From the NCBI GenBank assembly GCA_949358305.1, contig OX442314.1:4588001-4652000 (forward strand): a stretch of 64,000 nucleotides of DNA, given 5' to 3'. The position numbers and the translations under genes were made by a program. The notes beneath the pieces were generated by a model. That model was not told the origin of the DNA. It saw only the letters and a program-made list of their open reading frames with translations, and searched no databases. The DNA is from Strigamia acuminata (Eukaryota). This document shows, piece by piece, positions 22,210-60,600 of this stretch. Each line of letters starts with the position of its first letter. Position 1 is the first letter of the stretch.

Positions 22210-25200
22210 TTAACCACCCAGTTTGAGGCGAAACCAATTGTAAATTTTTAAAATATAAATGTGCAAAGAAAGTATTGACATTCCCAATGCTAATCCGACA
22301 ATGCTGCCGACATCACTTAACAAGCGAGATATTGGATAATTTAGTTCGTCTATTGTAGTCTTGTCGAAACTATCAGCTGACTTAAGTATTATAAATGTGT
22401 TTTTATTGAATTTAGTTTCATGCTCGATAATTCGGTTATAATTCTTTTTGCAGGGTTGTTTACATTTGCAAGTTTTTTTATTGGAGTTGTAATTGTGAAA
22501 ATACTTGGAACGGGCACTAGTAACGTCTTCCATCGTGTTGCAAGATGGCAAACTTGGTGTAGACATGTAGGGCAATCTGAAACAAGCATAGTTTAATTAA
22601 ACTGAACTCACAAATACAACTACGTTTCAAAAGTTTAGAAAGTAAATAACACCAAATAATTGACTTAAAAGCTAAGCAAAATAAATTTATACCATCAGAT
22701 TTGAATAAAAGAATTATTTTGCATTTAAAATAACCCAAAATTACATACATTTAGTTATCTAGTACAGTTACAAATTCAGATTTTCAAACATCACCTGTGC
22801 CAAAAGTTTAAAAACTTGAAAAAATCATTTATAAGTTTAGAAAGTGCAACATAATTTGCATATTGTGATGTATTTCAAACACTCATGCGCAAACTGGGTA
22901 TGTTATTGTCATTTACTAGTTATTTGTGCCCGATATTTGCCAATAATGGGCAAAGCTCTACTCTAGTTGCAGTCAAAAAGGCACTATACAATTTGTAGTC
23001 CCATTTATCGAGACAGTTTACTGGTGTAGTGATCCGGAAAAGTAGACCCAAACACCAGAATTGCATTACAATGTACAGACATTGTAATCGATTGCCTAGG
23101 CAACTACCAAAAATTCAAAATTGTTTACTTGTGACGATTCTACTTTTAACTATTTAGTGAGATAGATCGGTTTAGACAAGACGTTGCTAGGCTTAGCAAC
23201 AACCTAACCGAGATAAGCTACGGAATTCTGTGTGCTGCAAATAACTAATCAAGATAGAAATAACTTACGATTTTCTGAGTGTGACACAAAAACATATATA
23301 TTTATTAAGCATAATAAATGTGATGGGGTTCTGAGCGCGTGTAAACGGGCGGCATCAACTGGTTGGAGATCCGGGCGAAGTCAGAGGAGTACGGCTGACT
23401 TTACGGCATCGTCACAAACGCTACGGAGACGTATTTGGCTCAGCGGCACGAATATCTAAATAATGTGAAGAGTCCTTTGCATTCGTAGGAATATTCTTTA
23501 GAATATTCCAATATCAAATAATTATAGATCGATTAGTGGAATATAACAATTTATTGTTATATGTTTATTATTTGGGCGGGGACAGTCACGACAGTCGACA
23601 GGACCGTCGCGAGAGTTGTTGAGACTCCATCCGCCAGCATGCCTTACGACGACAAGATCTCGTGATCAGGCGCCGAGTATTTGTTTGTAAACGACAAGTC
23701 ACTATCGGTGGTACCAACCACCGGGTAAACATTTCTATGGACTTGCCAATACAGGATTACCAACACCCGAGTAGTTTGTTTAACACGGTATTTTATATAC
23801 CGTTCACGGGCTACCAACCCGGAGTGTACGATGGGGGGGGGGGGGGGACCGTCACGACGGTCGAGAGAACCATCGTGGGAGGATTTGACTCCTCCATCCG
23901 CCAGCATGCCTTACGATGACGGGATCCTTTTGATCAAGCACCGGGTAAATATTAATCAGCAGTCGCTGTTGGATTACCATGATCCAGGTAATTATTTAAT
24001 GCAATATCTTGTAGATATTACTCACGGGCTACCAACCCGGCGAGTCGCCTGTGCATTGGCCCTTTACCGACCTTTAACGTACGGAAGGACCAGCCACGGA
24101 ACATTGGGGACCTGAGAGGACAATTACAACAACCATCCTACAGCAGACTGAGGCCAGTTAGCTGAGGGACCCACTTCCATTTAGCAAGGTCTTACTGTAT
24201 AAGACCGTTATATTAAGCCACCGTACGGACTCTAACTGCTCCTTAGAGCAGCAAGCTAACGTTACGGGGCCATTTCATGTTATTAACATGTCTATTACCG
24301 GAGTTAGCCTTCCCGAAATAGCCCTACAACAACAATAACAATATAGTAATAAATACTAATTGTGGAGAGCTGAGGAGGCCTGATGTGTCGATAGAGAAAG
24401 TGAGATCAAACGATAACAACAATTCAACTACAGACAATATAGACATATTCAGTTATCAAGCCAAGGGGGTACTGGTTGGAAAAACAGTGCTTATACAGGG
24501 TGTATCAGAATTCATGTTACACAGAAATAAGGGGTATAGAGGGGGACCAGGAGATCACATTTCCACTAATCAAAAATTCCAAAAAAAAATTCCCACATGG
24601 TTACAACCCCAAAAACAATGGATGATTTCAAATATCACGTCACGCATATCGCCCACATTTTCCAAGTTAAAGCGCAATTATCAAATAAAAAGATACAAAC
24701 CTATCATTTTAATGTTAAAGAATCATAAAAAAAAAACCAAAAATCTGGAAAAACTAAAATAAATCATTTATGTAAAAGATTAATTTCCTTAGATTATTTA
24801 CCAAGTTATGCATTTGAACATGTAGAGCATTTCTTGTAATAAACTTCTGCTGTTGGCTACCGATTGTGTCTTTTTATTTGAGAATTACGCTTTAACCTGG
24901 CAAATGTGGGCGATACGCGTGACGCGCGATATTTGAAATCTTCCATTGTTTTTGGGTTGTAACAAAAGGGGAAATTTTTTTTGGAATTTTTGATTAGTGG
25001 AAACGTGATCTCCTGGTCCCTCTCTATACCCCCTATTTCTGTGTAACATGAATTCTGATACACCCTGTATAGTTCTGGAGAACTACTAGATTGGCGACAG
25101 CCAATCAGTGCACGAATCGACGGATTCGTAGGTCATTAGTCCGGACCTAAAAGAAGACTGGGTCAAGGAGAGTCCGTGTGACTCCTCCCCTTAAGGTAAG

Positions 25201-28200
25201 TAATGGTTATTGATTCGGTAGAATCAATATTTCAAGTAATAATACTTAATAGTGTTAAATAAAATAATGTATATTTTATTCGGCCTTCTAAATAATGTCT
25301 TTTTATTTAAACTCTGAATTTATCAAAGTTTGAACTGCACGCGTTTAATTAAACAGCGCCACCTAGTGTGAACATTGAATAATACGAGTTTACAATCGTC
25401 ACATACTCTACAGACATAGTAACCAATAAACATAACAAACATGAGTTTGACATTTTTATATGCGTAAAACTTCATTTCAATGATGGAAATAACATTTTTC
25501 AATAAGAAAAATCAAAATAACATTTTTCAATAAGAAAAATCAAAATAACATTTTTCAATAAGAAAAATCAAAATAACATTTTTCAATAAGAAAAATCAAA
25601 ATAACATTTTTCAATAAGAAAAATCAAAATAACATTTTTCAATAAGAAAAATCAAAATAACATTTTTCAATAAGAAAAATCAAAATAACATTTTTCAATA
25701 AGAAAAATCAAAATAACATTTTTCAATAAGAAAAATCAAAATAACATTTTTCAATAAGAAAAATCAAAATAACATTTTTCAATAAGAAAAATCAAAATAA
25801 CATTTTTCAATAAGAAAAATCAAAATAACATTAACTAAACTAGTTATAAACAAGCACAACAATAAATAAAAATTAAAACTAATTCTCCTAGTAGTAGTAT
25901 ACAGTCTGGAGTTAGTAGTAAACTGGCTCGACCAATGGAACTACAGATTGTAAAGTGCTTTTTTGACTGCAACTAGAGTATAAATAATTATTTCATGATG
26001 AGAAGGTGAGAGTTCTGGAGTTTCAACGTGTCTAACAAGAATTAAAGATGACAACGCCATCTTAAGACCAAGAAAACGCTCGGGAAAACCAAACATAACG
26101 ACAAAGCGAGATGTGACTGCCCCGAAAAAAACAATTCATGCCAATCGTTTTTCATCTCATAACTACTCTGGCTCGAAAATGGTCTACTTCTATTAAAAGA
26201 AAGGTTTTCAGAACCACAGTTTGGCAACGGATTGTGCAGCTAGGCTACAGGCCAAGGGGACCCAAAACAAAACCTGTCCTCAACAAGAGGCAGCGAAAAT
26301 GCTGAGTTGATTGGGCTAAAAAACATCGTCAATGGGGCCCAGAAGATTGAGAAAAGATTGTATGGAGCAATAAATCCATGTACTTAATTTGGGGACAATG
26401 TTTACCGCAGAAAAGGTGAAGAATTTCGCCCAGACTGCATTTAAACGGGTGTTAAATTCCCAACCAAAGTTACGGTCTGGGGATGCATGTCTACACATGT
26501 AGTTGTACAGATGTGCATCATCAACAGTCGCGTAGATCCAGAGGTGTACATGGTTGTGATGGAGACCTTTTGGAGTCAGATCATTGAGGGATTGTAAGAA
26601 GACAACAATTTTCTGTTCCAGCAGGATAATTGATTGACTGATTGATGAAATCAAGACTGTTTGGTCTCGCATCTCACAGAATGACAGTGCAGAACTAGGC
26701 ATTGCGAGGCATTGCAATTGCAATGCCTCGCAGATTGAAGGCAGTCATACTATCCAGAGGCCATCCAACAAAATACTAAACAATATTATACTGTATGTAA
26801 TGTTTTATTTTCAAGTCGAAATAACTTAAAAGAATTATGTTGCACTTTCTAAACTTATGAAATGAATTTTTAAAGTTTCCAAACTTTTAGCACAACTGAT
26901 ATTTTGAAAATCTGGATTTGTAACTACCATACTACCTTGAATAAACGCCAGGTTTAAATAGATGCCAAGACTCGTTTAAATGCCGGGGGTTGGCTGCATT
27001 TATTGCACAGCACGCTGCCCCAAATCAAACTGACTGGGGGGGGGTGTCGGGTGGGAAAAATTAAACGAGTCTTGGTTCTCAAAACTACATAACTAAATAC
27101 TAGTATATGTAATTTAAGGTTATTTTAAATACAAGATAATTGTTTTATTCAAATGTGATGGTATAATTTGCAGAAAAACTGCATCTTTAGAGGATGTGAC
27201 GCCATTTTGAGTTGCAGATCTGCAGTGTACATGCAAGTCTGAACCAGGCTTTAGAGGTGGTATTTTATAATAACAGTATTGATGGAAATAAGGAATTACT
27301 ACTAGATTACACTCAAATATTATCAGCATTTGCTTGAAAAACTACAACAATACCTGCAATTGATCTTGTGAAATAAATTGCTTTGCATGCAAGCAGTTTG
27401 ACACATGAAATAAGCAGTTTTATTTTGCTCACATGGGTTGAGTTTTGTATTTCTTCGAATGGTCTATTTGATAACATAATCATGGATTAATTTTTTTATT
27501 TTGTAGGTTTAATACGCAATGCATCCTGAGTGGTCAGTACACAGCACCGTCCGGACAAGCTTGGTGGGCACAACTAGACAAATGTTTTATGATTCTGAAG
27601 ATAAACCCGCAATTGACCAGAAAAATGTGGAAACTTTTTCTACTGCTCAATCTAATCCAGACATGTGACATTTGTCAAGACTAAAAATTTATATATGCTG
27701 GCCTAACTTTTCATTCTCAGACTCGGACAACTGTCTAGGGGCCGTCCCGTGACCACAGAGTACGCTGTACAGTCGTGGACAAAAAAAAACTTTCCTTCAG
27801 TTTATCTATCATTATTTGCCCAGTTTTTCTTTTAATACTAATGTTAGGGCAAGACGTGAGACCGCGCGTTAAGATTGATGTCATTGAATCTCAATGTATT
27901 TTTAAGCCACCTGGTAGATAAACTGAAGGGAAGTTTTATTGTCCACGACTGTACATAGACGGTGCAATTAAATTTTAAATCATATTTTTCATTTTAAGTA
28001 GGATTGAGCCATTAAATTTGTTTGTTTTGACAAATAGCAAAAATTTTGAATACATCTGAATGTTACCTTAGATACACGAAGAGAAAATACAGTCATAGAG
28101 CGATAGGAAATAAACATGGGTGCTAAAATATTGACTTCATCTTCTGAGTTATTTAGAAAAAACTGAAAATTTTTGTAATTGGATTTAGAAAGAATTTGGT

Positions 28201-31200
28201 TAAATTATTATACAATCAGAGTTTGAAAGCATACGCTAGATGTATGTAATAACTTCACTCATCGTTTCTTGACCAATGGAAAGTGCCGAAGCAGACGACT
28301 CGTGATATTATCTTACCTACTTGTAATACCGATTTCGCATCAGAAAATTTGGGCTAGTTTAACATTTAGATTTACCATCATACACATGGCGTGAGCCCAA
28401 TGGGTGATGTGGTTGGTCACATCGGACAACCACTCTGCTGTACTTACCCATACGACCCATGTAGCCACTCATGGTTCTGCAGCAATCATCTCGATCTGTC
28501 ACTGAGCGTCACAGTGGTGAGTGGTGAAAGGAGCAGAGTCGGCAGTTGTCTCTGCCATCGTTTGGACCGTGGCAGCTCACCCTGGCACGTCTTCACTCTC
28601 GGCTACCTCAGCAACTTCTCTCTCTCACCACACCACTCTGCTCTTACCTCCACTGCTAGGTCGGTCCAATCCTCCAAGAGGGGGACGGCTTGGGGCCACC
28701 AGGAGGTGTGTGGAATGACGTAGGCCACTAGGGTGACCAAACGGTCACATCTTTTTCTAAAATAAGTGTATTTTGCTATTACCCATAAATGTTGTTCACA
28801 AACTTCTGGAGGAACAAGGTTTATAAGAGCAATTATAACATCTGCTGTAACATGGTTTGTTTTTTCTAAAAATAAAAATAATTATATGCATGGAATTCCA
28901 TTAGTAATCTGGGCTCCAATACGGAACAATTGAAACTCTTTATAACAAATCGCAAAAGTTCCGAGAATTCGATTTGTTTTAACGAGAGTTCATTAAAACG
29001 AATTAGCTAAAAAAAAAATTAATTTCATCATAAATGACATTATTAATTCAGAAATTCATGTTTATGTTATCCCAATTCTTAAAAATTGTTGAAATTGTAA
29101 AACAGGACAAATTAAATTCAACTGCTACAATTGATGGCTTCCTGTGTTAAAACTAGTGAGTTGTTAGGAAGAAAATTGTGTCGTTGTGAAGCAAACCCCC
29201 AAAGGGGTATCTTATCAAATTGAAGTGTTATTCATTTATTTCATTTTAATCCTATTTTATAATTAATATTTGTGTATTTCACTAGATTTATCTTCAGTTT
29301 GAGTTATTTGCTAAAGATATTGTGTTTGTGGGTGATTTTGGATTTAGTATATTTTAATGATATAATTCATTTATTGGTCGATTTGGTGATTTTGGGTTGG
29401 GTTTGATTTGATTGTGTGTTTAGTAAAAGTTTGAATTTCTTTGTGATCGCCTTAGGACTAGTTTGTTAATGGGAAGTTCTGCTCCCTCAGACCTTGAACT
29501 GGTTTTTTTGTTATCTGTGATGTCACCCATGTAAGGTGTCACTCCCTGTAGAAACTAGGTAATAACAGTTGGTAGTCTTCACTCTGTCAGCCTGTGTGCA
29601 TCGTGTCCGTTCTCCTACAACAAGTACAACACGCAGTTTAAAACCATCATTGCAAGAACTTTGGAAAGTACACTTGATCCTCGTTATATTAAGACGAGAA
29701 TTTAATATCTTGCCATTGTCAATGACAAAAAAAATATTTAACTTGTCCTGCCCCAAAATTTTAATTCGTTTGCAAGCCATTTTAAACCCAAAAAAAATTA
29801 ATTTTTTCTAAATGTTATAAATGTGAGCATGGATGTTGCGCGTTATGTCATCAGTTGTGAAAATTCATTATAACAAGGGCTTGTGGGTATGATAGTGTAC
29901 ATAAAAACTTGTTTGTTTTAACGAATAATTCGTTATGTTGAAATTCGTTATATCGAAAATATTAAACATGGTGTTCTATGGATGGCAAACCAAATCATTT
30001 TTAACAATTTGTTATATCGCGATTCGTTATAAAGTGGTTCGACTGTACTTGCAAGACCAATCAGGTAAGAAGGAGATGATTAATTAGTAAGATCATTAAT
30101 AAACAAAACTAAAATGAGATTAGTTCAATGCCTCTAATGATATTTCTGGCGGCAATTCTCAGCCCAAGTAGCAGGGAAGTCAATAAATTTGTCTGGGTTG
30201 CATATCTGTTTGTAACAAGCACTCCCGTCATTTTTCAATTTACACAATAAATATGCCAACCAATAGGAGTTTGTTATAAGTTTTTGTAAACAAAGTATAG
30301 TCATATTCTGTTGAACTGATAGCGTTTCCGTGTGAATTACCTGTGTTAACTTGTGAACAATAACCAAATGGAAGTGGGACGAGGCACGTTGCTATGTTTA
30401 AAAATGTTGCGTATCCAAAATAATGCTGTAAATAATAAATATATATTTTATACACTTTGTAAGTTATTTAAATCTGTATACCTTGCTGAACCAGTCCTTA
30501 ACACTCATTGTTCGATGGATATTTAGGGTCTTCCAAATATCTTCTAATGACAATTCATTGTTGACCAATTCCCACGATGATATGTTATTGCAAGTTTTGT
30601 TTTTCTGTTGGAGTAACTGCATTCTGGCTTGTTCCATCTCATCACTGCGATTTTCACCACAGAGTGTGACGGATGGGAACTCCATATAGCGCCGTTGATC
30701 TATGGTAATGATTTTTGATATAGGTTCTTTCAGATAGTAGTTTAAACGACTTTGCAACAAGTATAGAGTGAATCCTGCACTAATTACAACCAGCAGCAAC
30801 TTAAACTTTCTGAAAACTCCGTTTGTTTTGATCTTCTCTTCACTCTCTGTGACTTCTTTCTTGGATTTCTCATAGAGTCGTTGAATCTTATCAAGGTTGG
30901 TAGTTTTGCGCATAGTTGTCACAACAAAATATAAATACCATGTGATTTCAGGTAGTGAGAGTAACGATAGACCGAGAAATAGTCCCAAATTGCCGCCTAA
31001 ATCAGATAGTAAAGCAATAACGTCATAAGTGAACCGCTCTTGATAAATGGTGATTTTATCATTGGTTAGTGCTAAAGTAAAAGACATTATTTTTTCATCG
31101 TCTGCTTGGCCGGAGTCTGTGTAGGGTGTAACAGACAGATGCTGACATGGAGGTCGACAATCACAAGTAGTAATTGGGTCTGTGGTGTCAATTAATTTAT

Positions 31201-32681
31201 TGACTATGCCGTATTGATCGTGTATAGCATCTGAACATTTACAAAGTGGTAAGTTCATCTTCAGAAAAGGAAATCTTAAGAAAAAAAAACAATTTAATGA
31301 AATTAGGATGGTTTTGTTCAGTGGCTTCGATTTAGAGCAAAAATGCAGTACTTATAAGTTGTTTGATTTAACAAAAAAATTTAGCATTATTTGTAAGTAA
31401 ATTAAACATATTTGTCATAAAATGTCATATCTTGGGTCAGTTAGGAAGAAATTGCTTTTACCTGCATGTTAGATTGTTTTCTAATCTTTTGAACAAGCAC
31501 TTTTGATAGCAATCTCTGTATTCATTTTCACTGGAGCACGGGCGTTTTGATGAATTGAGAAACATGTACTGAAATATAAATGAGACTTAGAATAATTGTT
31601 TCATTTTAATCGAGTTTAATGTTACTTTGTCATAACTCAAATTTATTTTCACTGTTGTACCACTAGCTCTACTTATATGGAAGTAAATTTTTCCAAAATT
31701 ATATACTGATAGCCTAATCTATAAGTGAAAAAAAGAAAAGAAATTTTGTTTCTCTTGTTGCTATGGGATTGTAATTGTTTTTATATTACCACGAACGTAT
31801 TTCCTGGGCAGATGTCTTGATAAAACTTTTCAAAATTCACTGTTAGTAGTTTTCCAACAAACGATTTACTAGAATTCTTATCTAAACAGAGTGGAAAGAA
31901 GATTATTTTACTTTTAGGCATAGTACGTTTCGTACTCAATGCAATTCCACGATAGCGTATAACGAATGTTACAGTAAAATTAACAGTGATTTTATTTGCA
32001 TATTAAGTAAATTGAGTCATGTAGTGAAGCGAACACAGCAAGGCAGATAATTAATCACTTACCAAATCGAAATGCTGAGCACATTCCAAATGGGCTGTCC
32101 ATTTCCTTCTGGACAAAGCTTTGGTTTGAATATCCCTGCAGAGGTGTAAACGATTAGATTTTAATCTTTATGATAATTTTTTATTTTTGCTTTTCTTTTA
32201 CTTTCATTTTGATGCTGACTATTTCTGGTGTCAAATTAGTTGCTTTCCAAACTTCGTCCATTTTGTTGGTTGGGTTTGCCATGAGAGTTTTCATCATGTT
32301 TGTGCAATGAAATGGATTAGTCCGAGTTGATTTATCTAAGTCACTACTCTTATTCCAAAGCCTGGCCACTTCTTTTGTATTCGTACTGCAGATCGCGATG
32401 TATGGTAAAACGATGTCATCCGATCTACTCGATACATCAACAGCCGTAGGATAACTCAAGTAATCCATTACTCTCTCGTATGTCTGATAAGTGAGCATGC
32501 ATGTGCAAAATAATAACAAAAGAAGCCATAAAACGTGAATCGTGCTCCAACGTCGTTTTCTGTTAATGAAGTCATTTAAACCAGTTAAACCGCAGCTCGG
32601 TTTGTTCTCATCTTCTCTCATTAATTGATGAATTGTCACACGTAATTTCCTCATTCTTCTTGAAATATAGTTATTTTGCAT
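22210..32681 (-). CDS. DEG/ENaC (pickpocket/ASIC-like) channel gene, copy 1, two subunits in tandem; 11 exons, about 792 aa
   Basis: Hand-spliced GT-AG exons: 32681-32202, 32135-32063, 31881-31790, 31718-31626, 31568-31462, 31274-30482, 30425-30341, 28865-28783, 28162-28067, 27463-27354, 22576-22210. Total 2379 nt, phases compatible, no internal stop. Each family motif occurs twice: TM1 + 'YLSYPT..LPYIAIC' / 'YLKEPI..FPSVTLC'; 'PFGMCSAF' / 'PFGYCSQV'; 'CDCRPPC' / 'CKCKQPC'; TM2 'LLSDLGGNLGLFLGLSLLS' / 'LLSDVGSIVGLALGMSILS'. Confidence 0.9.
23130..25403. mobile_element. Solo LTR (about 1.7 kb plus an internal MITE)
   Basis: Termini TGTGACGATT...AATCGTCACA with 4-bp TSD TACT (23126-23129, 25404-25407). 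Ends resemble the element C LTR. Confidence 0.8.
24496..25067. mobile_element. Tc1/mariner-type MITE
   Basis: Long TIR CAGGGTGTATCAGAATTCATGTTACACAG..., flanked by TA on both sides. Confidence 0.9.
25488..25832. repeat. 28-bp minisatellite, about 12 copies
   Basis: Unit AACATTTTTCAATAAGAAAAATCAAAAT, no spacers. Confidence 0.97.
27769..27952. mobile_element. Small TA-flanked MITE (paralogous copy at about 55673-55860)
   Basis: TIR CAGTCGTGGACAA / TTGTCCACGACTG. Confidence 0.8.
28922..30045. mobile_element. Old pogo/Tigger-like MITE in intron 7 (paralogous copy at about 56524-57043)
   Basis: Degenerate TIR ..GAAACTCTTTATAACAAATCGC / GATTCGTTATAAAGTGGTTCGACTG-TA, with repeated TTCGTTAT subterminal motifs. 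Confidence 0.55.
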
Positions 32682-32987: not shown

Positions 32988-33597
32988 GATGGACTAAACG
33001 TCTGGTGTCAGGTGTCAGGCGTCTGATTCTCTTTTTTTACTAAAACTAAATGTCAGGTGTCAGGCCCCTGACTATCCTGGACTGTCAGGCGTCAGGCTTC
33101 AGGTGTCAGGTCCCTGACTATTCCGTACTGTCAGGTGTCGAGTGCTAACGCCTGACGCTGACGCCTGACAATCCAGGATAGTCAGGGACCTGACACCTGA
33201 CACCCGACGTTTAGTCCCAGGTCGGATCACTTCATCGAATCCTGTTTCATCAAATTCTCATTTTTTCTCATTTTTTGAAATGTGGGAAAACAGGGGTCGT
33301 TTCATCGAATTTTAAATTACGCTCGGTATGTTTCAACAAATTTTCGGCCATCATCGGGGATATTATTCACGTGGCTACGTGGTTAAGTTAGGTTGTGTTA
33401 GGTTGTGCTATGTTGTGTTAGGTTAGGTTAGGTTAGGTTAGATTAGGTTAGGTTAGGTCAGGTCAGGTCAGGTTTTTGGTTTTTCTGTTTGTGTATTTCG
33501 GTTTTTCTTTAATGTACCGTTTCATCAAATTTTTTGAAATGAATGGTACGTTTCATCGAAAGATTCGATGAAGTGACCCGACTTCGTTTAGTCCATC
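32988..33597. mobile_element. Composite of two MITEs; the inner one (about 33220-33583) holds a (TTAGG)n-like tract
   Basis: Outer inverted ends GATGGACTAAACG / CGTTTAGTCCATC. Inner TIR GTCGGATCACTTCATCGAAT / ATTCGATGAAGTGACCCGAC. GGTTA repeats at 33381-33473. Confidence 0.7.
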
Positions 33598-34371: not shown

Positions 34372-34795
34372 TCAAATTTGACTCAATTTTGCTCAAATTT
34401 GTCTCAATTTTGCTCAAATATGTCTCAATTTTGCTCAAATTTGTCTCAATTTTGCTCAAATTTGTCTCAATTTTGCTCAAATTTTTCAAAATTTCCTCAA
34501 TTTTTTCTAAATTTCCTCAAATTTTTCTAAATTTCCTCAAATTTTTCTAAATTTCCTCAAATTTTTCTAAATTTCCTCAAATTTTTCTAAATTTCCTCAA
34601 ATTTTTCTAAATTTCCTCAAATTTTTCGAAATTTCCTCAAATTTTTCTAAATTTCCTCAAATTTTTCTAAATTTCCTCAAATTTTTCTAAATTTCCTCAA
34701 ATTTTTCTAAATTTCCTCAAATTATTCTAAATTTCCTCAAATTATTCTAAATATTCCTCAAATTATGCTAAATTTTCTTAAGTTTCCTTAAATTT
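34372..34795. repeat. About 20-bp minisatellite with a gradient of unit variants
   Basis: TTTGTCTCAATTTTGCTCAAA units grade into ATTTTTCTAAATTTCCTCAA units. Confidence 0.95.
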
Positions 34796-36762: not shown

Positions 36763-37393
36763 TGTGGTGATTCGGCATCACCTGAAGAAGTAATTAGCGG
36801 TGATTATTGTGTTACTAATACTCGCCACTAGAGCGCGCTAGAAATACCGACTAGACTGACTAGTCTCGTGTTTCTGCGAACCTGCATAATCGGAAGGATT
36901 TGCATATGACGTCATTTCCGGTTAGTATATAACGCCGATACTTGACCGGAAACGACACTACAGTTACCACATTTCAGCAAGAGCACCATTTACCTCACCT
37001 TTCAGGCCGTTTCACGGATTGATCGAGGACCGGTGCCCGCTGACCATCTCAACTGTACAACAGCCACATTTATTTAGCGTAGCCAATCTACGCTAGAATA
37101 AATATTCGAACGATATTCGTTTAATTCGCACGAGAAAGCGAATTCTCGCGTGTTCATAATAACACGTGGAAATACCCTAGACAACAAACATAGACCACGC
37201 GTAGGACTAAACAATTGGATCCGCCATTGTTTAGCGGCAACTCGTATTCGCAGCCGAATCCGAGGACCAACACAGAAAACATCTTGACTTATATTTGTAT
37301 TAGTAAGCGTGTTTTAATAAAGCAGTATTTGAAATATATTGTATTCCCGAGTGTATTATTTATTATCTTTAACCACAAAGTCGAATCACGACA
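36763..37393 (+). repeat. 5' LTR of element B
   Basis: Repeat of 47922-48552. Contains ATTTGCAT, TGACGTCA, TTTCCGG and TATATAA at 36898-36932. Confidence 0.97.
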
Positions 37394-37395
37394 CG

Positions 37396-37413
37396 TGGGG
37401 GCCTGTCCGGGAT
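37396..37413 (+). promoter_or_regulatory. Primer binding site of element B, tRNA-Pro-like
   Basis: TGGGGGCCTGTCCGGGAT, 2 nt after the LTR end. Confidence 0.88.
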
Positions 37414-37485
37414 AGATTTGCTAACCTTAAGACAATACTTTAAATAATAACCGGGATCTTTCGATCGATCATTATATCGTAAGAA

Positions 37486-40332: not shown

Positions 40333-43300
40333 TTCCACATCCGCTCGCGATAACTTCGAAAACGATGGACCTTACTCTGGTGGAAAAACAAATTAAAGAA
40401 ATGGAAAAATTGTTGGAATTCTTCGAGGAAGCTGCCAACGAGGAAGTCACAACTCCAACCAAAAAACGGAAATTCGAAATTAGAGACGAAGACGGTATAG
40501 CCAACGCTTTCATGACTTTGCCGCTTGACCAAGGGGCCAATCCTCTTAAAAAGCGAATACTTCGTTGCAACCTATCAACAGAAGCGAAGAGCGTACTGGC
40601 TAAAATACCAGTCTCTTTCGGCAAAAAGGTGTTAATGGGACTACTCGACTCGGGAGCGGATCAGTCGTTTATCTCCACCGACTTATTCGAATCACTCGAA
40701 GAAAAAATACAGAAAAAATTACGGGGAATGAACGAGAACATTCGAGTTCTTACAGCAGCGGGAGAAGTTAGAGCAGTGGGGACGTTATCAACCGATTTTG
40801 TATGGGAAGGAGGCACGATTAAGCATTTCTTCATCGTGTTACCAACCCGAGACACAATCCTGCTGATAGGAATGGATTTGATGGAACGGATGAACATCCA
40901 GCCCAACCCAGTCACACGTTCGTGGAATTACATCGACAACCACGAGGACCCACGACTACCCATAATACCTCCGGAACTCCTAGACAAAGCTAAGGACGAC
41001 GAGGAATGGGGAGGAGGCGAAATTAAGAAGTTCATCCAAGACTATAATTTTAAGTCGTTTAATACTATCCTCCAAGAGGAGAATTTAATACATAATCTGG
41101 CCATGGACGCCAATCTTGGAGAAGAACAAACGAAACTCCTCGAGGAAATGCTCAAGAAGCACTCGAAGAACTTAAATAAAGATCCAGGAAAGACTAGTTA
41201 CGTAATGCACGAGATCGAATTGGTTACGGGAAAACCGGTGCGAGTACCTTTTAAAACTATGAATCCCCAAAAGAGACATATCGTAAGAACGATGTGCAAC
41301 GAGTTGCTCGAAAAAGGGATCGTGTCGCACGCCATCGGAGAATATGGAATGAGGATTGTCCTCGTCATGCGACCAGGCTCCGAACCGCGCCTCTGCATCG
41401 ATTATAGACCTTTAAACGCCATAACCGTCATCGACCCCATCCAAATGCCGTCAATAGAAGCGATTCTACGGGAGCTCGCCCCATTTAACTGGGTCACGAC
41501 CATGGACTTGTCCAAGGGTTACTGGCAGGTTGAATTGCGGGAAGAGGATAAAGAGAAAACAGCTTTTTGGGCACCACAGGGTCGACTGATGTTTAATGTA
41601 ATGCCCTTCGGGTTAGTAAACGCACCCGCCACCTTTCAAAAACTAATAGAAAAAGTTCTCGGCGATGCCTTACACAAATACGCATGGGCTTACCTCGATG
41701 ATATAGTCATAGTCTCCCAAACTTTTGAAGACCACCTGATACACGTGAATGACGTCATGGAGCGACTCACAAAAGCCGGTCTAAACATTCATCCAGGGAA
41801 AAGTAAATTTTGCCGCAAAGAATTGGCATTCCTGGGTTACACAGTCGGAACAGGTGGCCTATCCATCGACCCGAAAAAGACCCAGGCGATTAGCCAGTTC
41901 CCCGCCCCGGAAGATGTAAAAGGAGTCCAACGTTTCATGGGCATGGTGAATTTCTTCAATCGATTGCTCCCAAATTTGGCAGACGTCGCGGCACCCATCA
42001 CAGATCTGTTACGCAACGATAAAGATTTCGAGTGGACTGACCACTGCGAAACATCGTTTAACAAGATAAAACAAATGCTGATCGATGTAAAACGAATTCC
42101 CCTACCAGATCTTAATCGAGAATTCACTCTTCACACCGACGCCAGTCGAATTGGCCTAGGTGCTGCGTTGCTTCAAAAGCATGACATCGACGGAGTAGTG
42201 TTAGAGGTCCCGACGATGTTCATCAGCCGGAAATTACAAGCAGCCGAAAAGAATTATAATGCGACAGAGTTAGAATGTCTAGCCGTCGTCTGGGCAATCC
42301 GAAAATTCAGACCATACCTGGAATTTACCAAGTTCAACGTACAAACTGACCACGAAGCACTAAAGTGGTTAATGGCGTTGAAGGAACCGTCCGGAAGAAT
42401 GGCTCGCTGGCAGCTAGAATTAATGGCTTGTGACTTAATCATTGAATACCGACCCGGAAAATTCAACGTCGTGGCAGACGCCCTCTCACGAGCCCCAGCT
42501 TCAGACCCCGAAGACGAGACCGACTGCGGAGAGGACGACTCACGCCTCTTCTACTGTCCGAACCCCGTCCGAAAATGGGAATTTAAAAAGCTAAACGAAT
42601 TACCCAAGGAGAAACTCGAGTCAGGAGACCAAAATTATTACAATTATTGGCTCCGAGCATACCAGTCTGTCAAGGACGCTCACCCAAATTACGAGCTAAC
42701 GATAGAACCTCGAATCTCCGACAAGTACGTTCGAGCATTCGTCGCCCACGTAAGCAAGGGGACGAATAGTAAGCCGCCCACCAGGGACGAATTAATAGCC
42801 GCCCAGATGACAGACGACTTCTGTAAAACTTATCGAAACTTCATCACAGATAAAAAATTTCCCGACGAGAATTTCGACGAAATCCAACGCGAAGAATTCG
42901 AAAGAGAAGCCTCCACGTACTTAATCGAGGATGGACTTCTACTAAAACACCACCCGAATTTCCGCGATGATCTGACGGAGACGGGAACTTCGATGAAAGT
43001 CGTTATACCCAGGAGTCTGCTGACAAGGTTTCTGTGGATGGTCCACGGACACCCGCTCGCCGGACATTCTGGAGTGGCCAGAACGATCTACCGAGCAAAT
43101 CAACTTTATTTCTGGCCAAAAATGACCCGAGATATCGTTCGTTTTATTCATCACTGCCCCAGATGCCAAGCGTGCAAGCCGAGGACGCCCAAGAGCTACG
43201 AGAGAATCTCACTTGGCCCTTTCGCACCCTTCGATTGCTGGAGCGTGGATTTAATGGGCCCAAAGCCCACGTCATCCAATAAAAACAAATATATATTAGT

Positions 43301-44411: not shown

Positions 44412-44596
44412 AAACAACCACAGGGGGGACACCTGTTACGTCCCACAATGCGTCTTAATTGGCCAAACCAATCAAAGATGACATGAGACTAATAGTTAAC
44501 CTCTAACCCGACCCACATTTATCACTGTCATCTCCGACTAAGCGACGATCACCTCGAGGCAGCCGTAAATCAAAGTATCAAATTAATTTCCGAAAA

Positions 44597-53090: not shown

Positions 53091-54105
53091 GAAGACTTTT
53101 CATTTTATTCGTTTGTTTCGTTCCAATTATTACTTTGTAACTGGGAGGGGATGTGTGATATGTTATGTATTTATCACGCCAGATGGCGTTACTGTATTAT
53201 AGTTTAAGTGTACTATTAAAAGAGGGGACTAGTTGTTGTTTTTAAACTGTCATGGCACCTTCACTCATTTTATCAGCCTCCACAATTTAGACAACTAATA
53301 ACACAATTACATTTTTACAATAACTTACCTACGCACCTACCATTATAACAGCACATGATCGATCTAGGTGCATTGGTGGCTGAACACGGTAATATATGGT
53401 AAGGGGATTTTACTTTGCATGCTAATGGAGAAGGTAGTAATGGCTTGTAATTTGCATGTAGACTTGCAAGATAAATTTGTGGGTAAGTAACTTGTCACTT
53501 TAGTCAATAATTGGTGCAGAAACATTTGGATTGATCTTATGCAGTTCTAGATTGGACAAATTGGCCACCCAGTTTGAGGCAAAACCAATTATAAATGTTT
53601 AAAAGATAAATGTGCAAAGAAAGTATTGACATTCCCAATGCTAATCCGACAATGCTGCCGACATCGCATAACAAGCGAGATATTGGATAATTTAGATCGT
53701 CTATTATAGTCTCCTCAAAACTGTTAGCTGGCCGAAGCTTTATAAATGTGTACATATTATTTTTGAATTTACTTTCATGCTCGATAGTTTGGTAATAAGT
53801 AATTTTGCAGGGTTGTTTACAGTTGAAAAGTTTTTTGATTGGAATTGTAATTGCGAAAATACTGGGAATGGGCACTAGTAATGTCTTCCAACTTGTTGCA
53901 AGGTGGCAAACTTGGTGATGACATGTACGGCAATCTGAAACAAGCATAGTTAAATTAAACTGAATTCACAAAAACTAAGTGCCTGCAAAAAGTTGAGTTT
54001 TCGGTGTTAGTTTGGTTTTGCGGTGTCACTACCTTAAATGGAGCGGTTGATGACTTGCTACTTGCAAGTTAACGTAATGGTTGGTACAAACTTCCGTATA
54101 CGCTT

Positions 54106-54312
54106 GGCCAGCAGAATCTGTATTTTTAACTCCAGCTACCAGATGGCGCAAAAACTCGTTGTTTTTTTGACGTCACAGGATCCAACCCACTGGATCCAAA
54201 CTTTTGCCAGACACAATGGAGGAGTAGAATTTGTTTTTCGTGAGTCACAAAAAATCAACGAGTTTTTGCGCCATCTGGTGGTTAGAGTTGAAAATACAAA
54301 TTCTGCTGGCCA
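54106..54312. mobile_element. Palindromic MITE-like element
   Basis: About 70-bp arms TGGCCAGCAGAAT..CCAGATGGCGCAAAAACTCGTTG and their reverse complement. Confidence 0.7.
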
Positions 54313-57136
54313 AGCTTGAGCAGGTAAGGGACGTTTTTCATGTCCAAGACTGTACATCAATAGCCATTTTTTTTGCTAACCAATCTCACAATATTTGAAT
54401 TGTTTGATGTTGTGAGCTGTGATTGGCTACTGGAAAATTCGCACAGAATAATAGAAAATATTTCTATTTTCAAAATCTAAAGAAAAACCGCATCATCACA
54501 GGAAGTGACGTTATTCTGAGCTCGGAATCTGCAGCGTACACGCTGTGACCGCTTGGCCACTCACGGTGGCCTGCGTCACTACCACGCACCACCTTGCGGC
54601 CCCAAGGTCGTCGTCTCTTGTGAGTGGACTGACCCAATACGGGGAGGAGGGAGCTAAGTGGTGTGGTGAGGGAGAGATGTGAGAGAGAGGAGCAGGACCA
54701 CCGATGGGACAAGACGTGTCCGAGGCCTGGCGTCCGCAAGGGCAACCCTGCCCTGTGCGCTCGATGATCTCCTCACCATTCACCACGTCAAAGCTCAGTA
54801 GTATGTCGTTCTCCATACTGCAGCCTCCATGAGTGCCTGCGTGGGTTGTACAGGTGAGTACGACATGAATGTTATATTGAATCGACAACGTCATCCATGG
54901 GGCTCACGCCCTGTGTGTTACGGGTTGGTTGCCGGTGCAGTATGCCTAACTGGCACCCCTGCAACGGGTGACGGGATTCTCAAACCCCTAGACAACAGTA
55001 TTAAGGGCCAACAACCAGCAATATGGAGTCTCTTGTCATTTCACGTGAGTATCCGTCCCACACCAGAATAAGTAGTCGCCGGGTTTCCTTGGCAACGACC
55101 ATACCAGCCACAACGCAAGTGTGAACCAGGCTTTAGAGGTGGTATTTTGTAACAGCATTGATGGAAGGAAGGAATGACTACTAGATTACACTCAAATGTT
55201 AAATATTATCAGCATTTGATAGAAGAACCACAACAATACCTGCAATTGATCCTGTGAAATAAATTGTTCTGCGTGCAGGCAGTTTGACACATGAAATAAG
55301 CAGTTTTGTTTTGCTCACATGGGTTGAGTTTTGTATTTCTTCGAATGGTCTGTTTAATAACATAATCATGGTTTAATTTTTTAATTTTGTTCGTTTCAAA
55401 TGCAATGCATCCTGTGTGGTCAGCAATGTCCGGACAAGCTTGGTGGGGCATTACTAGACAAACGTCTTATTATTCTGACTATTAGTCCGCACATGACCAG
55501 AAAAATGTGGAAACTTTTTTTGACTGTTTTATTTCTATCTAGTCAAGTTATGTGACATTTGTCAAGACTAGAGAGTTACGCTGACCTAACTTGTCATTTT
55601 CCTAACCGGACAAAAATTCTAGGGGCTGTCTTGTAACTATATAGAGTACTGTACACAGAGGACGTACACTGTACAGTCGTGGACAAAAAACTTCTCTTCA
55701 GTTCAGCTGTTTAAAGTGTATCTATCATTATTTGTTTATCTTTTAACACAGATGTTAGGGCAAGTCGAGAGATCGGATCAAGATTGATGTCATTGAATCT
55801 CAATGTATTTTTATGCCACCTGGTAGATAAACTGAAGGGAAGTTTTTTTGTTCACAACTTTGAATGCACCCGAATGTTACCTTAGATATACGAAGAGCAA
55901 ATACAGTCAAAGAGCCATAGGACATAAACATGGGTGCTAAAATATTGACTTCATCTTCTGGGTTATTCAGAAAAAACTGAAAATGTTTGTAATTGGATTT
56001 AGAAAGATTTTGGTTAAATTATTATACTAGTACAATCAGTTTGAAAGCTTAAGCTAGATGTACAGTACAAGATAACATCACTCATCGATTCTTGCCTAAT
56101 TGGAAGTGCCGAAACAGTCGACGAATGATATTGTCTTACCTACTTGTAATACCGCTTTTGCACCAAAAAACTTTTGGCTAGTCTAACAATTAGATTTACC
56201 TTAAGTCCTTTAATGGAATGCGGGTGTTCTAATTATAAAATTCAGATTTTCCCGTATATTAATTGAGATCCGCACACATTTTTCTTTACTTGATATTAAC
56301 TATTTTATCTAAAATAAGTTTATTTTGATATTACCCATAGATGTTGTTCACATACTTCTGGGGGAAAAAGTTTTATGAGAGCAATTGTAACATCTGCTGT
56401 TACATGGTTCGTTTTTTCTATAAAAAAAAAAATAATTTTATTCATGGTATATACCTTAAACTATACTGTATTGGAGCCCAGATTACTATGGAATATATTT
56501 CATTAGTGATCTGGGCTCCAAGACAGTAAAGTCGAAACTCTTTATAACAAATCGCAAGGGACCCGAAAAATCAATTCGTTATAACGAAAGTTCGTTAAAA
56601 CAAATTAGCTGAAAAAAAAATTACATTTCATCATAAACAACATTATATATTCATAAATTCATGTTAGCTTTATCCCAATTCTTAAAAATTGTTGAAATTG
56701 TAAAACGGGACAAATTAAACTCAACTGCCACAATTGATGGCTTCTTGTCCTGAATCAAAATTTCCTTTCATTTGCCAGCCATTTTAAAACAGAAAATTTA
56801 TTATTTTTTCTAATGTTCTAAACATAGGCATAGGATTTTGTGACTCGTGATCAGATTTGAAAATTCTTTATAACAAGGCGTTGTGAGTATTGCAGTGTAC
56901 GTAAAACCTTGTTTGTTATAACGAATAATTCGTTATATTGAAATTCGATTCAATATATTAAGAATTTTTAACATGGTCATTTTTAACGATTCGTTAAACC
57001 GATAATTCGTTATATCGTGATTCGTTACAAAGAGTTTCGACTGTACTTCCAAGAGCCTAAAAGGTAAGAAAGAGATGATTAATTAATTATATCATTGATA
57101 ATCAGAACTAAAAGGTGATTGATTAGTTCAATGTCT

Positions 57137-57676
57137 TGTGACTGGATATGGTCTTACCCGCACAGTATATGAATTTACTACACGGGTGGGACGCATACAT
57201 CACGTAAAGACGATACAGAGACCCCAGATTGTTGGGTTTTGGCCTTTAATCGTTGTCTAGGGGTTTAGGTCTCTCGTCTCACTGTATGGAGTGCTGTTAG
57301 GCACACTACACTGGCAACCGTCCCATCGCACACAGGACGTGAGTCCCATGGGCGACGTGGTCGGTTACGTCGGACGAACATGCTGCCGCACTTTTCTCTT
57401 ACAGCCCATGTGGCCACTCACGGAGGCTGTGGCAGGCACATCTTCTTGCCACTGAGCGTCACAGTGGTGAATGGTGAGAGTGGCAGAGTCAGCAATTGTC
57501 TCTGCTGTGGTTAGGATCGTGGCAGCTCATCCTCGGCTCTCCCAGCAACGTCTCTCTCTTACCACACCACTTTCTCCTCCCCTGCTAAGCCAGTCCACTC
57601 CGTGAGGGGGACGGCTTGGGGCCACTAGGCGGTGTGTGGAGTGACGCCAGTCACCTAGGGTGGCCAAGCGGTCACA
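57137..57676. mobile_element. 540-bp solo-LTR-like insertion; related copies at about 28380-28749, 33930-34017 and 54544-55070
   Basis: TGTGAC...GTCACA ends with 4-bp TSD GTCT. The paralogous site near 30130 is empty. Confidence 0.8.
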
Positions 57677-60600
57677 GTCTCTAATGTTTATTCTGGCGGC
57701 AGTTCTCAGCATATGTTGTAGGGATGTCAATAAATTTGTCTGGGTTGCATATCTGTTTTTCACAAGCACAACAGTCATTTTTAAATTTACCCAATAAATA
57801 TGCCAACCAATAGGAGTTTGTTGTAAGTTTTTGTAAACGAAGTATTATCATATTCTGTTGAACTGATAACGTATCCATGTAAATTACCTGTGTTAACTTG
57901 TGAACAATAACCAAATGGAAGTAGGACAAGACTCGTTGCTATGTTTAGTATTGTTGTGTATCCATAATAATGCTGTAAATATATATTTTATACACTTTGT
58001 ATTGTAAGTTTTTTAAATTTGTATACCTTGCTCAACCCGTCTTTAACACTCATTATTCGATGGATATTTAGGGTCTTCCAAATATCTTCTTACGACAATT
58101 TATTGTTGACCAATTGCCATGGCAATATGTTATTGCAAGTTTTCTTTGTCTGTTTGAGTATCTGCAACCTGGCTAGTTCCATCTCATCACTGCGATTTTC
58201 ACCACAGAGTGTGACGGTTGGAAACTCCATGTAGCGCCGTTGATCTATGGTAATGATTTTTGATATGGGTTCTTCAAGGTAGTAGTTTAAACGAATGTGC
58301 AACAAGTATAGAGTGAATCCTGCACTAATTAAAACGAACATGAATTTAAACTTTCTTAAAACTCCGTTAGTTTTGATTTTCTCTTCACTCTCAGTGACTT
58401 CTTTTTTGGATTTTTCATAAAGTTGTCGAATATCCTCAAGGTTGGTAGTTTTGCGCGTAGTTGTTACAACGAAATACAAATACCATGTGATTTCAGGTAA
58501 TGAAAGTAACGATAAGCCGAGAAATAGTCCCAAATTGCCGCCTAAATCAGATAGTAAAGCAATAATGTCGTAAGTGAACCGCTCTTGATACATGTTGACT
58601 TTCTCATTGGTTAGTGCTAAAGTGAAAGACATTATTTTTTTATCATCTGCTTTGCCGGAGTCTGTGTAGGGTGTAAAAGCCATTTGATGGCACGGAGGTC
58701 GACAATCACAAGTAGTAATTGGGTCTGTGGTGTCAATTAATTTATTGACTATGCCATACTGATGGTTTACAGCAGCTGACCATTCACAAAGTGGTAAGTT
58801 CATCTTCAGAAAAGGAAATCTTAAAAAAAAAAATTAATAAAATTAGTTTGGTTTGTTCAGTGGATTTGATTTGAGCAAAAATGCAGTGCTTAAGTTTGTT
58901 TGATTTACCAAAAATCATTAGCATCACTTGTTAGTAAATTAAACAAATTGATCATAAAATGTCATTTCTTGGGTTAAGTAGGAAGAAATTGCTTTTACCT
59001 GCAGGTTAGATTGTTTTCTAATCTTTTGAACAAGCACTTTTGGTAGCAACCTCTGTATTCATTTTCACTTGAGCACGGGCGTTTTGATGAATTGAGAAAC
59101 ACGTACTGAAATATAAAGATGACTTAGAATAGTTGTTTCATTTTAATTGAGTTTAAATTTTACTTTGTCGTAACTCAAATTGATTTTCACTGCTGTACCA
59201 CTGGCTTTATTTATGTAAAAGTAAATTTTTCCAAAATTATATACTGATAGCCTAATCTATAAGTTAGAAAAAGAAAAAAAATTTTGTTTATCTTGTTGCT
59301 ATTTGATTGTAATTGTTTTTATATTACCCTGAACGTAACTATTGGGCAGACGTCTTCATAAAACTTTTCAAAATTCACTGTTAGTAGTTTTCCAACAAAA
59401 GATTTACTAGAATTCTTATCTGAACACAGTGAAAAGAAGATTAATTTAGTTTTAGGCATAATAAGTTTTGTACTCAATACAATTTCAGATAGCGGATATC
59501 GAATGGACAATACGGTCATCATTACAGTAAAATGACAGCGCCAAGCTTTAACAATATTAAGTTCATTGGGTCATGCTGTTAAGCGAACACAGCAAGGCAA
59601 TTAATTAATCACTTACGAAATCGAAATGCTGAGCACATTCCAAATGTGCTGTCCATTTCCTCCCGGACAAAGCTTTTGTTTGAATATCCCTTTAGAAGTG
59701 TAAATGATTAGATTTTATTCTTTATGAAAATTTTTGATTTTTGCTTTTCTTTTACTTTCATTTTGATGCTCACTATTTCAGGTGTCAAATTAGTTGCTTT
59801 CCAAACTTCGTTCATTTTGTAGGTTGGGCTTGCCATCAGAGTTTTCATCATGTTTATGCAATGTAATGGATGAATTCGACCTGATTTATCTAATTCACTA
59901 CTCTTATTCCAAAGCCTGGCCATTTCTTTTGTATTCGTACTGCAGATTGCAACGTATGGTAAAACGATGTCATCTGATCTACTCGATACATCAACAGCCG
60001 TAGGATAACTTAAGTAATACATTACTCTGTTGTATGTCTGATAAGTGAGAATGCATGTGCAAAATAATAACAAAAGAAGCCATAAAGCGTGAATCTTGCT
60101 CCAACGTCGTTTCTTGTTAATGAAATCATTTAAACCAGTTAAACCGCAGATCGGTTTGTTCGCATCTTCTCTCATTAATTGATGAACTGTCAGACGTAGT
60201 TTTCTGTTCATTTTCATTCCTTAGGTTATTCGCACAACAAATGAGTATATGGATTGAGTGGTTAATAATTACATTTATGATGTTGACAAATGTGAATATC
60301 AACTTGTGAGTTTTGAAACCTGTACGCAGAAGAGATATTGTGCGTTTTTGAATTGAGTTGGTTGTTTCTGCTGTCGACTTTTGCTGAGTTCAAGGTGAAC
60401 TGACAACACGTGTGTATTCATACATAGTTTCCCAGCAACATACTGGTTGATTATAGATAAGTATAGTTCTCTATTCGCTGCGTGCTAATCAGGCATTTCA
60501 GGAGTTAATTGGATAAAAATGAGTTGAATTATTGATGTTGTGACACGGAAAACCAAGAAATACTGATATTGACTGTTGGAACTTTGTGCAGTACAGTAAA

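What the first reader, a model, noticed from the sequence alone, without database searches (positions are those of the whole stretch)
30482..31274. Natural head-to-tail fusion of two DEG/ENaC subunits in one polypeptide
Seen: TM2 of repeat 1, a ~35-aa charged linker, and TM1 plus FPSVTLC of repeat 2 all lie in one stop-free exon, so this is not a gene-prediction merge. The paralogue has the same fusion. Known: DEG/ENaC channels are trimers of 2-TM subunits. Inference: a 4-TM concatemer cannot form a simple homotrimer; it may take one free partner (2+1), cross-link channels, or be cleaved. The ectodomains are also compact.
Basis: partly seen in the sequence, partly recalled or inferred. Interest (0 to 1): 0.85.

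Follow-up and report, generated by a model that had tools for sequence, protein, structure and literature searches.

The report
Two channel subunits in one protein
This gene, likely from a centipede, joins two complete sodium-channel subunits head to tail in one reading frame, although such channels are built from three subunits, so the double protein would likely take one separate subunit to complete a pore; two- and three-subunit fusions of this kind also turn up in other centipede and shrimp sequences.

Summary
The fusion is real. Exon 31274-30482 (minus strand) reads TM2 of one DEG/ENaC subunit, a basic linker of about 40 residues, then TM1 and FPSVTLC of a second, without a stop. It belongs to an 11-exon, all GT-AG, stop-free 786-aa model with four hydrophobic segments. 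The two halves are 19% identical yet share all five intron positions and phases: two whole genes fused last exon to first exon. The linker is under purifying selection (dN/dS 0.23, few sites). The junction recurs in 34 of 150 homologues, 20 of them Strigamia maritima gene models, and trees reject a fresh self-duplication in each gene, so the fusion is old and has expanded. Three-repeat chains, a whole trimer's worth, occur in decapods and in a second Strigamia family. One correction: the paralogue has the junction but is broken in this assembly (in-frame stop, frameshift). Half 1 keeps a canonical pore helix; half 2 has drifted. Most likely both halves share one pore with a third, separate subunit (0.45); the main rival is trimers of like halves, as discussed for UT-A1 (0.25). 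Expression and assembly are untested. Nine literature searches found no natural DEG/ENaC concatemer.

The parts
32220..32681 (-). Gene A exon 1: start codon, N-terminal helix, TM1 of repeat 1 (aa 46-64), start of ectodomain 1
   Evidence: ORF and Pfam ASC hit; GT donor; tblastn to S. maritima T1JEH2
32063..32135 (-). Gene A exon 2 (FGxC motif of repeat 1)
   Evidence: GT-AG, phase 0 to 1; tblastn
31790..31881 (-). Gene A exon 3
31626..31718 (-). Gene A exon 4
31462..31568 (-). Gene A exon 5 (cysteine-rich thumb of repeat 1)
   Evidence: aligns with exon 10 and homologues
30482..31274 (-). Gene A exon 6, the fusion exon: end of ectodomain 1, TM2 of repeat 1, linker, TM1 and FPSVTLC of repeat 2
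   Evidence: 54% identical over 99% of its length to T1JEH2 with no gap in the linker
30812..30925 (-). Basic linker between TM2 of repeat 1 and TM1 of repeat 2, predicted cytoplasmic (about aa 393-430)
   Evidence: net charge +5, and net positive in 22 of 22 family linkers; dN/dS 0.23 against paralogue B
30341..30425 (-). Gene A exon 7 (FGxC motif of repeat 2; counterpart of exon 2)
28783..28865 (-). Gene A exon 8 (counterpart of exon 3)
28067..28162 (-). Gene A exon 9 (counterpart of exon 4)
27354..27463 (-). Gene A exon 10 (thumb of repeat 2; counterpart of exon 5)
22210..22576 (-). Gene A exon 11: TM2 of repeat 2 (aa 750-774) and stop codon
   Evidence: Pfam ASC hit
53540..60217 (-). Paralogue B: same 11 exons, 89% identical DNA over exons 1-7; broken in this assembly by an in-frame TAA at 58092-58090 and a 1-nt frameshift in exon 11

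Best explanation
Gene A carries two complete, different DEG/ENaC subunits in one spliced reading frame and is predicted to make a four-helix membrane protein whose halves likely sit side by side in one trimeric cation channel, with the third place likely filled by a separate single subunit. Shown: the 786-aa stop-free model, the single-exon junction, four hydrophobic segments, identical intron patterns in both halves, selection on the linker, and the family. Inferred origin: two neighbouring, already diverged channel genes fused when the last exon of the first ran into the first exon of the second. The stop codon, spacer and part of the second N-terminus were lost, and the fused gene then multiplied. 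Inferred working: the basic linker stays in the cytoplasm and ties TM2 of half 1 to TM1 of half 2 as neighbours. Two of the three pore positions and their order are thus fixed, and a free subunit supplies the third. Half 1 gives a canonical pore helix and half 2 a drifted one, so the pore would be asymmetric. A sensory role (acid, heat, chemicals) is a guess from the nearest characterised relatives.
For: Model: 11 exons, 10 of 10 introns GT-AG, no internal stop, hydrophobic segments at aa 46-64, 361-379, 433-453, 750-774. Five of five introns of half 2 match half 1 in phase (0,1,0,0,2) and within 3 alignment columns, at 19% identity; 0 of 200,000 random placements matched 4 or more. dN/dS against B: 0.39 over exons 1-10, 0.23 in the linker (7 silent, 7 replacement), 0.36 in half 2. 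Junction in 34 of 150 listed homologues, 20 named as S. maritima; linkers 38-65 aa and net positive in 22 of 22. AU test rejects self-duplication in each gene (p 0.003 and 0.002) and does not reject one clade per half (p 0.29). For sharing one pore: no chain among the 150 has more than three repeats, and full three-repeat chains with linkers of similar length exist. An AlphaFold2 model of the homologue T1JD34 reached pTM 0.64 over both halves, with best fold matches BRTNaC1 and PDPNaC1. Engineered ASIC concatemers form working trimers (passages of PMC10329638, PMC4899722, PMC5449180). S. maritima has single-subunit gene models in the same part of the tree, such as T1IGW0.
Against: Half 2's pore helix has drifted: glycine at 3' in 1 of 8 against 23 of 23 in half 1, GxS in 5 of 8 against 22 of 23, an acidic residue at 18' in 1 of 8 against 17 of 23. 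That also fits a half that does not line the main pore. The linker has pLDDT under 50 in the model (residues 396-422), and AlphaFold may pack any two subunits of this family as neighbours. Engineered concatemers kept the subunits' own ends plus a 7- or 19-residue linker, so they do not show that about 40 residues suffice. Half 2 was not one clade in the fast tree, and half 1 had no support once P0044 was left free. The S. maritima and Halocaridina proteins are automatic gene models whose exons I could not see, and many are truncated. No partner subunit is identified. Paralogue B is broken.
Confidence: 0.45

Rival explanations
1. Like halves assemble with like: three chains give a half-1 trimer with a canonical pore, while the half-2 domains form a second, tethered trimer or hang outside as an accessory. 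No free subunit is needed.
For: Half 1 alone keeps the canonical TM2 signature across the family and half 2 does not. In the natural tandem urea transporter UT-A1, only a trimer of the N-terminal half was resolved (passage of PMC13279936). The two halves are only 19% identical.
Against: A linker of about 40 residues makes two three-fold trimers side by side hard to build (geometric inference, not computed). Half 2 is as constrained as half 1 (dN/dS 0.36 against 0.45) and keeps both TMs and the cysteine frame. Repeat number stops at three in the 150 hits, which fits sharing one trimer.
Confidence: 0.25
2. Both halves share a pore, but the third place is taken by one half of another double chain, so three chains build two linked channels or longer strings.
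For: It needs no other gene, and the family is large enough to supply many partners. It is compatible with the AlphaFold2 packing of both halves.
Against: The bridging chain would have to place its halves in different trimers with the same short linker. Single-subunit relatives exist that could fill the place more simply.
Confidence: 0.12
3. The fusion is a delivery device only: the linker is cut, or shorter transcripts are made, and ordinary single subunits assemble.
For: The linker is basic and poorly ordered in the model. Broken paralogue B would encode a whole half 1 before its stop.
Against: No conserved cleavage motif: RxxR in 5 of 22 linkers. No GTRAG donor in exon 6 and no AATAAA after TM2. 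The one linker methionine of A is threonine in B. Half 2's linker lacks the pre-TM1 segment that half 1 has.
Confidence: 0.1
4. Gene A is a silent or non-conducting relic, as B appears to be.
For: B is broken in this assembly, one contig in run X2 has a 2-nt deletion in exon 6, overall dN/dS is a relaxed 0.39, and the locus sits among retrotransposons.
Against: A has an intact 786-codon frame and 10 of 10 canonical introns and is about 50% identical to T1JEH2 across both halves.
Confidence: 0.08

Closest known systems
BRTNaC1 (Scolopendra subspinipes mutilans, PDB 8YMR; PMC9974506) and PDPNaC1 (PDB 9JF7; PMC12714832)
   Same: Best Foldseek matches to the model of a family member and among the top sequence hits. 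Compact subunits of 431 and 421 aa. PDPNaC1 also lacks a canonical HG motif (passage).
   Different: Single two-TM subunits; PDPNaC1 is a homotrimer (abstract). About 20-22% identity, so gating by heat or protons cannot be carried over.
ASIC, ENaC, FaNaC, pickpocket (Pfam ASC, PF00858)
   Same: Each half has TM1, FPxxTxC, FGxC, a cysteine-rich thumb and a GxS-bearing TM2.
   Different: Two subunits in one chain; no HG motif; half 2 lacks G3' and E18'; ectodomains about 295 aa.
Engineered ASIC concatemers (PMC10329638, PMC4899722, PMC5449180)
   Same: Subunits joined TM2 to TM1 through the cytoplasm assemble and conduct (passages).
   Different: Laboratory constructs of three subunits; here a natural chain of two unlike subunits with a shorter junction.
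UT-A1 urea transporter (SLC14A2)
   Same: A natural tandem of two units of a trimer-forming family, with the same counting problem; its quaternary structure is described as uncharacterised (passage of PMC13279936).
   Different: Unrelated fold. Each UT unit has its own pore (recalled), whereas a DEG/ENaC pore needs three subunits.
Nav/Cav, TPC and K2P channels (recalled, no call)
   Same: Natural fusions of channel subunits that fix stoichiometry and allow an asymmetric pore.
   Different: Their repeat number (4 or 2) divides the tetramer evenly; two does not divide three.
Uncharacterised Strigamia maritima proteins T1JEH2, T1JGJ4, T1JEG4, T1IYF0, T1JD34, T1ITL7
   Same: Same junction; the first four are about 50% identical to gene A.
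   Different: Automatic gene models named only 'uncharacterized'; no paper found that describes their architecture.

Membership tests
DEG/ENaC (Pfam ASC) | Pfam ASC match above the curated cut-off | tested here: met
   Exons 1, 6 and 11 score 48.5, 79.6 and 26.2 bits against a cut-off of 23.6
DEG/ENaC (Pfam ASC) | Two TM helices around a cysteine-rich ectodomain, per subunit | tested here: met
   Met by each half: 16 and 13 cysteines, two hydrophobic segments each
DEG/ENaC (Pfam ASC) | One subunit (two TMs) per polypeptide | tested here: not met
   Four hydrophobic segments and two repeats in one frame; this is the variant feature
DEG/ENaC (Pfam ASC) | GxS motif in TM2 | tested here: met
   GLS in half 1 and GMS in half 2 of gene A; 22 of 23 and 5 of 8 across the family
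DEG/ENaC (Pfam ASC) | Pre-TM1 HG motif | tested here: not met
   Absent before both TM1s. Not universal: absent in PDPNaC1 and present in 43% of insect PPKs
DEG/ENaC (Pfam ASC) | ASIC-like fold | tested here: met
   On the homologue T1JD34, not on gene A itself: Foldseek E 8.5e-18 to 8YMR, TM by target 0.65-0.71 for the top three
DEG/ENaC (Pfam ASC) | Trimeric assembly | tested here: inconclusive
   Needs experiment; the prediction jobs are listed under Tried and rejected
DEG/ENaC (Pfam ASC) | Cation conduction, amiloride block | not testable with these tools
   Needs electrophysiology
BRTNaC1/PDPNaC1-type centipede sensory channels | Heat or proton gating, antennal expression | not testable with these tools
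   Only fold and about 20% identity link them; orthology was not tested

The most novel reading that the evidence does not exclude
Arthropods have repeatedly hard-wired DEG/ENaC stoichiometry by gene fusion, as four-repeat sodium and calcium channels did for tetramers. Centipedes have an expanded family of two-subunit chains that leave one swappable slot for a third subunit, giving a combinatorial sensory-receptor code. A second centipede family and decapod crustaceans have three-subunit chains that are whole channels from one gene.
Probability: 0.45. Interest if true: 0.9.

Novelty: new variant of a known kind. Interest (0 to 1): 0.8.

Why it matters
DEG/ENaC channels are described as trimers of separate two-helix subunits, and laboratories fuse subunits artificially to learn how stoichiometry and order shape gating and selectivity. 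Natural two- and three-subunit chains would give that experiment ready-made, with halves that have diverged in the pore helix. A two-unit chain in a three-unit channel poses a sharp, directly testable assembly question, shared with UT-A1. It offers a trimeric parallel to the fusions behind Nav/Cav channels. It also warns annotators that long multi-ASC gene models in arthropods are not all merge errors.

Tried and rejected
No whole genome is held for this window, so copy number and possible partner genes in this species could not be surveyed. Sequencing runs: no RNA holder listed. The runs laid (X1, X2, X3, X6) cover introns, and none of the joints shown matches a modelled intron (25 further joints were not shown), so they say nothing on expression; their depth was not used as a copy number. 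B's stop: every contig laid over 58091 (3, 3 and 7 contigs in X1, X2, X3) reads the open codon, but these differ from B at many nearby sites and no B-identical contig was seen there, so the stop is neither confirmed nor refuted. Complex prediction, T1JD34 residues 68-750 with T1IGW0 residues 95-411: no verdict, score 0.23 against a mark of 0.34, alignments not used; not counted either way. AlphaFold2 of the three-repeat P0079, residues 45-1244: pTM 0.43, mean pLDDT 58, inconclusive. A word-based search with the family alignment returned only its first member. The near-length search added no new protein spanning the junction (4 hits). JGI metagenomes: 160 pattern matches, 0 confirmed; the alignment was too divergent to scan. 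ESM Atlas gave only ordinary ASC clusters. A full IQ-TREE bootstrap timed out, leaving a tree without supports; one search returned nothing. VIA-align was busy twice. Earlier scan notes held nothing on this architecture. Rejected: a gene-prediction merge at this locus (junction inside one exon); a recent self-duplication (19% identity, AU test); a third repeat of gene A in the window (no further ASC-like segment apart from the duplicate at 1-98); 'compact ectodomain' as a special trait. Supplements of the papers were not read and could mention long gene models.
Full report
Observation. The minus-strand frame 31351-30464 is open for 295 codons. The exon inside it, 31274-30482, lies between an AG acceptor and a GT donor. 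Pfam ASC matches it in two stretches. Against solved structures, its first part aligns to TM2 of ASIC5 and its second part to TM1 and the FPxVTxC motif. The order TM2, linker, TM1 inside one exon is therefore in the DNA. A 40-codon stretch of this composition is stop-free 5% of the time, 1.8% with the frame matched, so one locus alone would be only suggestive; the evidence below settles it.

Gene model. Using tblastn of a homologue and splice signals, I built an 11-exon model from 32681 to 22210. All 10 introns are GT-AG, the frame has 786 codons without an internal stop, and hydrophobic segments lie at aa 46-64, 361-379, 433-453 and 750-774. The ectodomains are about 294 and 298 aa. The halves are 19% identical, but the five introns of half 2 match the five of half 1 in phase (0,1,0,0,2) and within three alignment columns; 0 of 200,000 random placements matched four or more. 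So each half descends from a whole six-exon gene, and exon 6 is the last exon of the first gene joined to the first exon of the second. No further ASC-like segment lies in the window apart from paralogue B and the duplicate at 1-98. The model is computational; no transcript was examined.

The paralogue. B (60217-53540) has the same exons and 89% DNA identity over exons 1-7. It still serves as a control. dN/dS between A and B is 0.39 over exons 1-10, 0.23 in the linker (7 silent and 7 replacement changes, a small sample), 0.45 in half 1, 0.36 in half 2 and 0.34 beyond B's stop. The linker has thus been kept as protein, and B's lesions are recent or are assembly errors.

Relatives. The fusion exon is 54% identical over 99% of its length to Strigamia maritima T1JEH2, without a gap in the linker. 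The whole model is about 50% identical to it, so the organism is likely a geophilomorph centipede or close kin (inference). A search of 1.84 billion representatives gave 381 hits, of which the best 150 were listed; 34 of the 150 have a TM2-to-TM1 junction. I looked up 29 of the 34: 20 are S. maritima, 2 Halocaridina, 1 each Polypedilum, Helobdella and Notodromas, and 4 are unnamed Logan or ENA records, one of them clustering with a Penaeus protein. Five were not looked up. Four of the 20 S. maritima proteins form a separate multi-repeat family; the other 16 are of gene A's type (15 placed by tree, 1 by alignment). In 22 of 22 linkers of A's type, gene A included, the length is 38-65 aa and the net charge positive, as expected for a cytoplasmic loop. 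These are automatic gene models, many truncated, and I could not see their exons. One ENA ORF spans just the region of exon 6.

Trees. On 128 repeats, FastTree put halves 1 in one clade (0.85-0.90) and halves 2 in another (0.86). On 52 of the 128, a fast IQ-TREE run kept halves 1 together with P0044 (95) but split halves 2; an unfinished longer run recovered both clades. The AU test rejects trees in which each gene duplicated itself (p 0.003 for A's subfamily, 0.002 for all) and does not reject one clade per half (p 0.29; the best tree, which has both clades, p 0.81). Half 1 had no branch support on the constrained tree once P0044 was left free. The reading is one old fusion of two different subunits followed by expansion, with moderate support for a single origin.

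Three-repeat chains. Four of the 150 hits read N-C-N-C-N-C, a fifth was shown by a longer profile and Pfam, and two S. maritima models hold parts of three repeats. None has more than three. P0079 and two cluster mates lie as unbroken 1,268-aa ORFs on contigs of 4,447-4,553 bases, and P0145 on one of 4,664, which suggests mRNA (inferred; the run type is not given). A ceiling at three is what one expects if repeats of a chain share one trimer.

Asymmetry. Numbering from the TM2 aspartate as in ASIC (numbering recalled), halves 1 keep glycine at 3' in 23 of 23, GxS in 22 of 23 and an acidic 18' in 17 of 23; halves 2 do so in 1, 5 and 1 of 8. Each E18' adds to selectivity in ASIC1a concatemers (passages of PMC5449180). 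Neither half has the HG motif; PDPNaC1 lacks it too and is less selective (passage of PMC12714832).

Structure. The spliced protein could not be folded, so I folded the complete homologue T1JD34 (791 aa, 25% identical to A, 22-row alignment): mean pLDDT 70, pTM 0.64, two repeats of the same element order, linker under 50. Its best PDB matches are BRTNaC1 and PDPNaC1, then ASIC1. A pTM above about 0.5 for two equal domains suggests a preferred packing (my inference), but the predictor may pack any two such subunits.

Mechanism. Most likely (0.45) both halves are neighbours in one pore and a free subunit fills the third place. Engineered ASIC concatemers joined the same way work (passages of PMC10329638 and PMC4899722), and S. 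maritima has single-subunit models nearby in the tree, such as T1IGW0. The main rival (0.25) is trimers of like halves, favoured by the drift of half 2 and by UT-A1, where only the N-terminal half's trimer was resolved (passage of PMC13279936). Linked channels (0.12), cleavage or short transcripts (0.10) and a silent gene (0.08) follow. Against cleavage or short transcripts: RxxR in only 5 of 22 linkers, no GTRAG in exon 6, no AATAAA after TM2, and the linker methionine is not kept in B. A sensory role is a guess from BRTNaC1 (parts 1-2 of 5 read) and PDPNaC1 (abstract and passages).

Novelty. Nine full-text searches of the held library listed no paper describing a natural multi-subunit DEG/ENaC chain; I judged most by title and abstract. 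Term look-ups found no mention of fusion in the insect PPK survey (passages; it notes 8% of PPKs with three to five predicted TMs, without comment on repeats in what I saw) or the mite survey (passages), none in the ENaC passages of the decapod survey, and no ENaC term in the main text of the S. maritima genome paper. The library lacks most subscription papers, matching is literal, and supplements were not read. The parallel with Nav/Cav, TPC and K2P channels is recalled.

Verdict. New variant of a known kind, interest 0.8.

Noticed in passing
P0079, P0152, P0153, P0145, P0041, P0134: Three-repeat DEG/ENaC chains of 1,244-1,289 aa. Two are Halocaridina rubra gene models; four lie as unbroken ORFs on Logan contigs of 4.4-4.7 kb, which suggests transcripts (inferred). 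Repeats 1 and 2 each form a clade, and repeat 3 does with weaker support, so this is an old triple fusion: a candidate single-chain channel.
   Followed up: partly
P0037, P0154-P0158; similar P0050, P0054, P0073, P0085, P0114: Penaeus vannamei XP_069977668 and five Logan contigs encode a chain with three TM2-like segments and a shortened middle repeat.
   Followed up: partly
P0002, P0006, P0007, P0008 (S. maritima T1IL99, T1IU28, T1IZL2, T1ITG7): A second multi-repeat family in S. maritima with closely related repeats, up to three per chain; a separate clade from gene A's halves.
   Followed up: partly
P0021, P0048, P0139: Multi-repeat models in Polypedilum vanderplanki (three repeats), Helobdella robusta and Notodromas monacha; single gene models that may be merge errors.
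   Followed up: no
P0026 (ENA contig of 1,154 bases): A 241-aa ORF 30% identical to exon 6 that starts and ends where exon 6 does, suggesting the same junction-in-one-exon layout in a distant family member.
   Followed up: partly
window 1-958 and 22520-23477: Exact 958-base duplicate that includes the 5' part of gene A's last exon, flanking a 21.5-kb block rich in retrotransposon ORFs; a further copy of the gene end to the left of the window, or an assembly duplication.
   Followed up: no
window 36763-48552: LTR retrotransposon between the two paralogues: 631-base LTRs 99.8% identical, gag, pol in PR-RT-RH-IN order, and an extra 896-aa ORF (45032-47719) with no Pfam match.
   Followed up: partly
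window 7389-9302 and 14904-16817: Exact 1,914-base direct repeat around a 501-aa ORF (9901-11403, minus) with no Pfam match.
   Followed up: no
window 33375-33470 and 34372-34795: Short TTAGG-like repeat tract and an A/T-rich minisatellite upstream of gene A.
   Followed up: no
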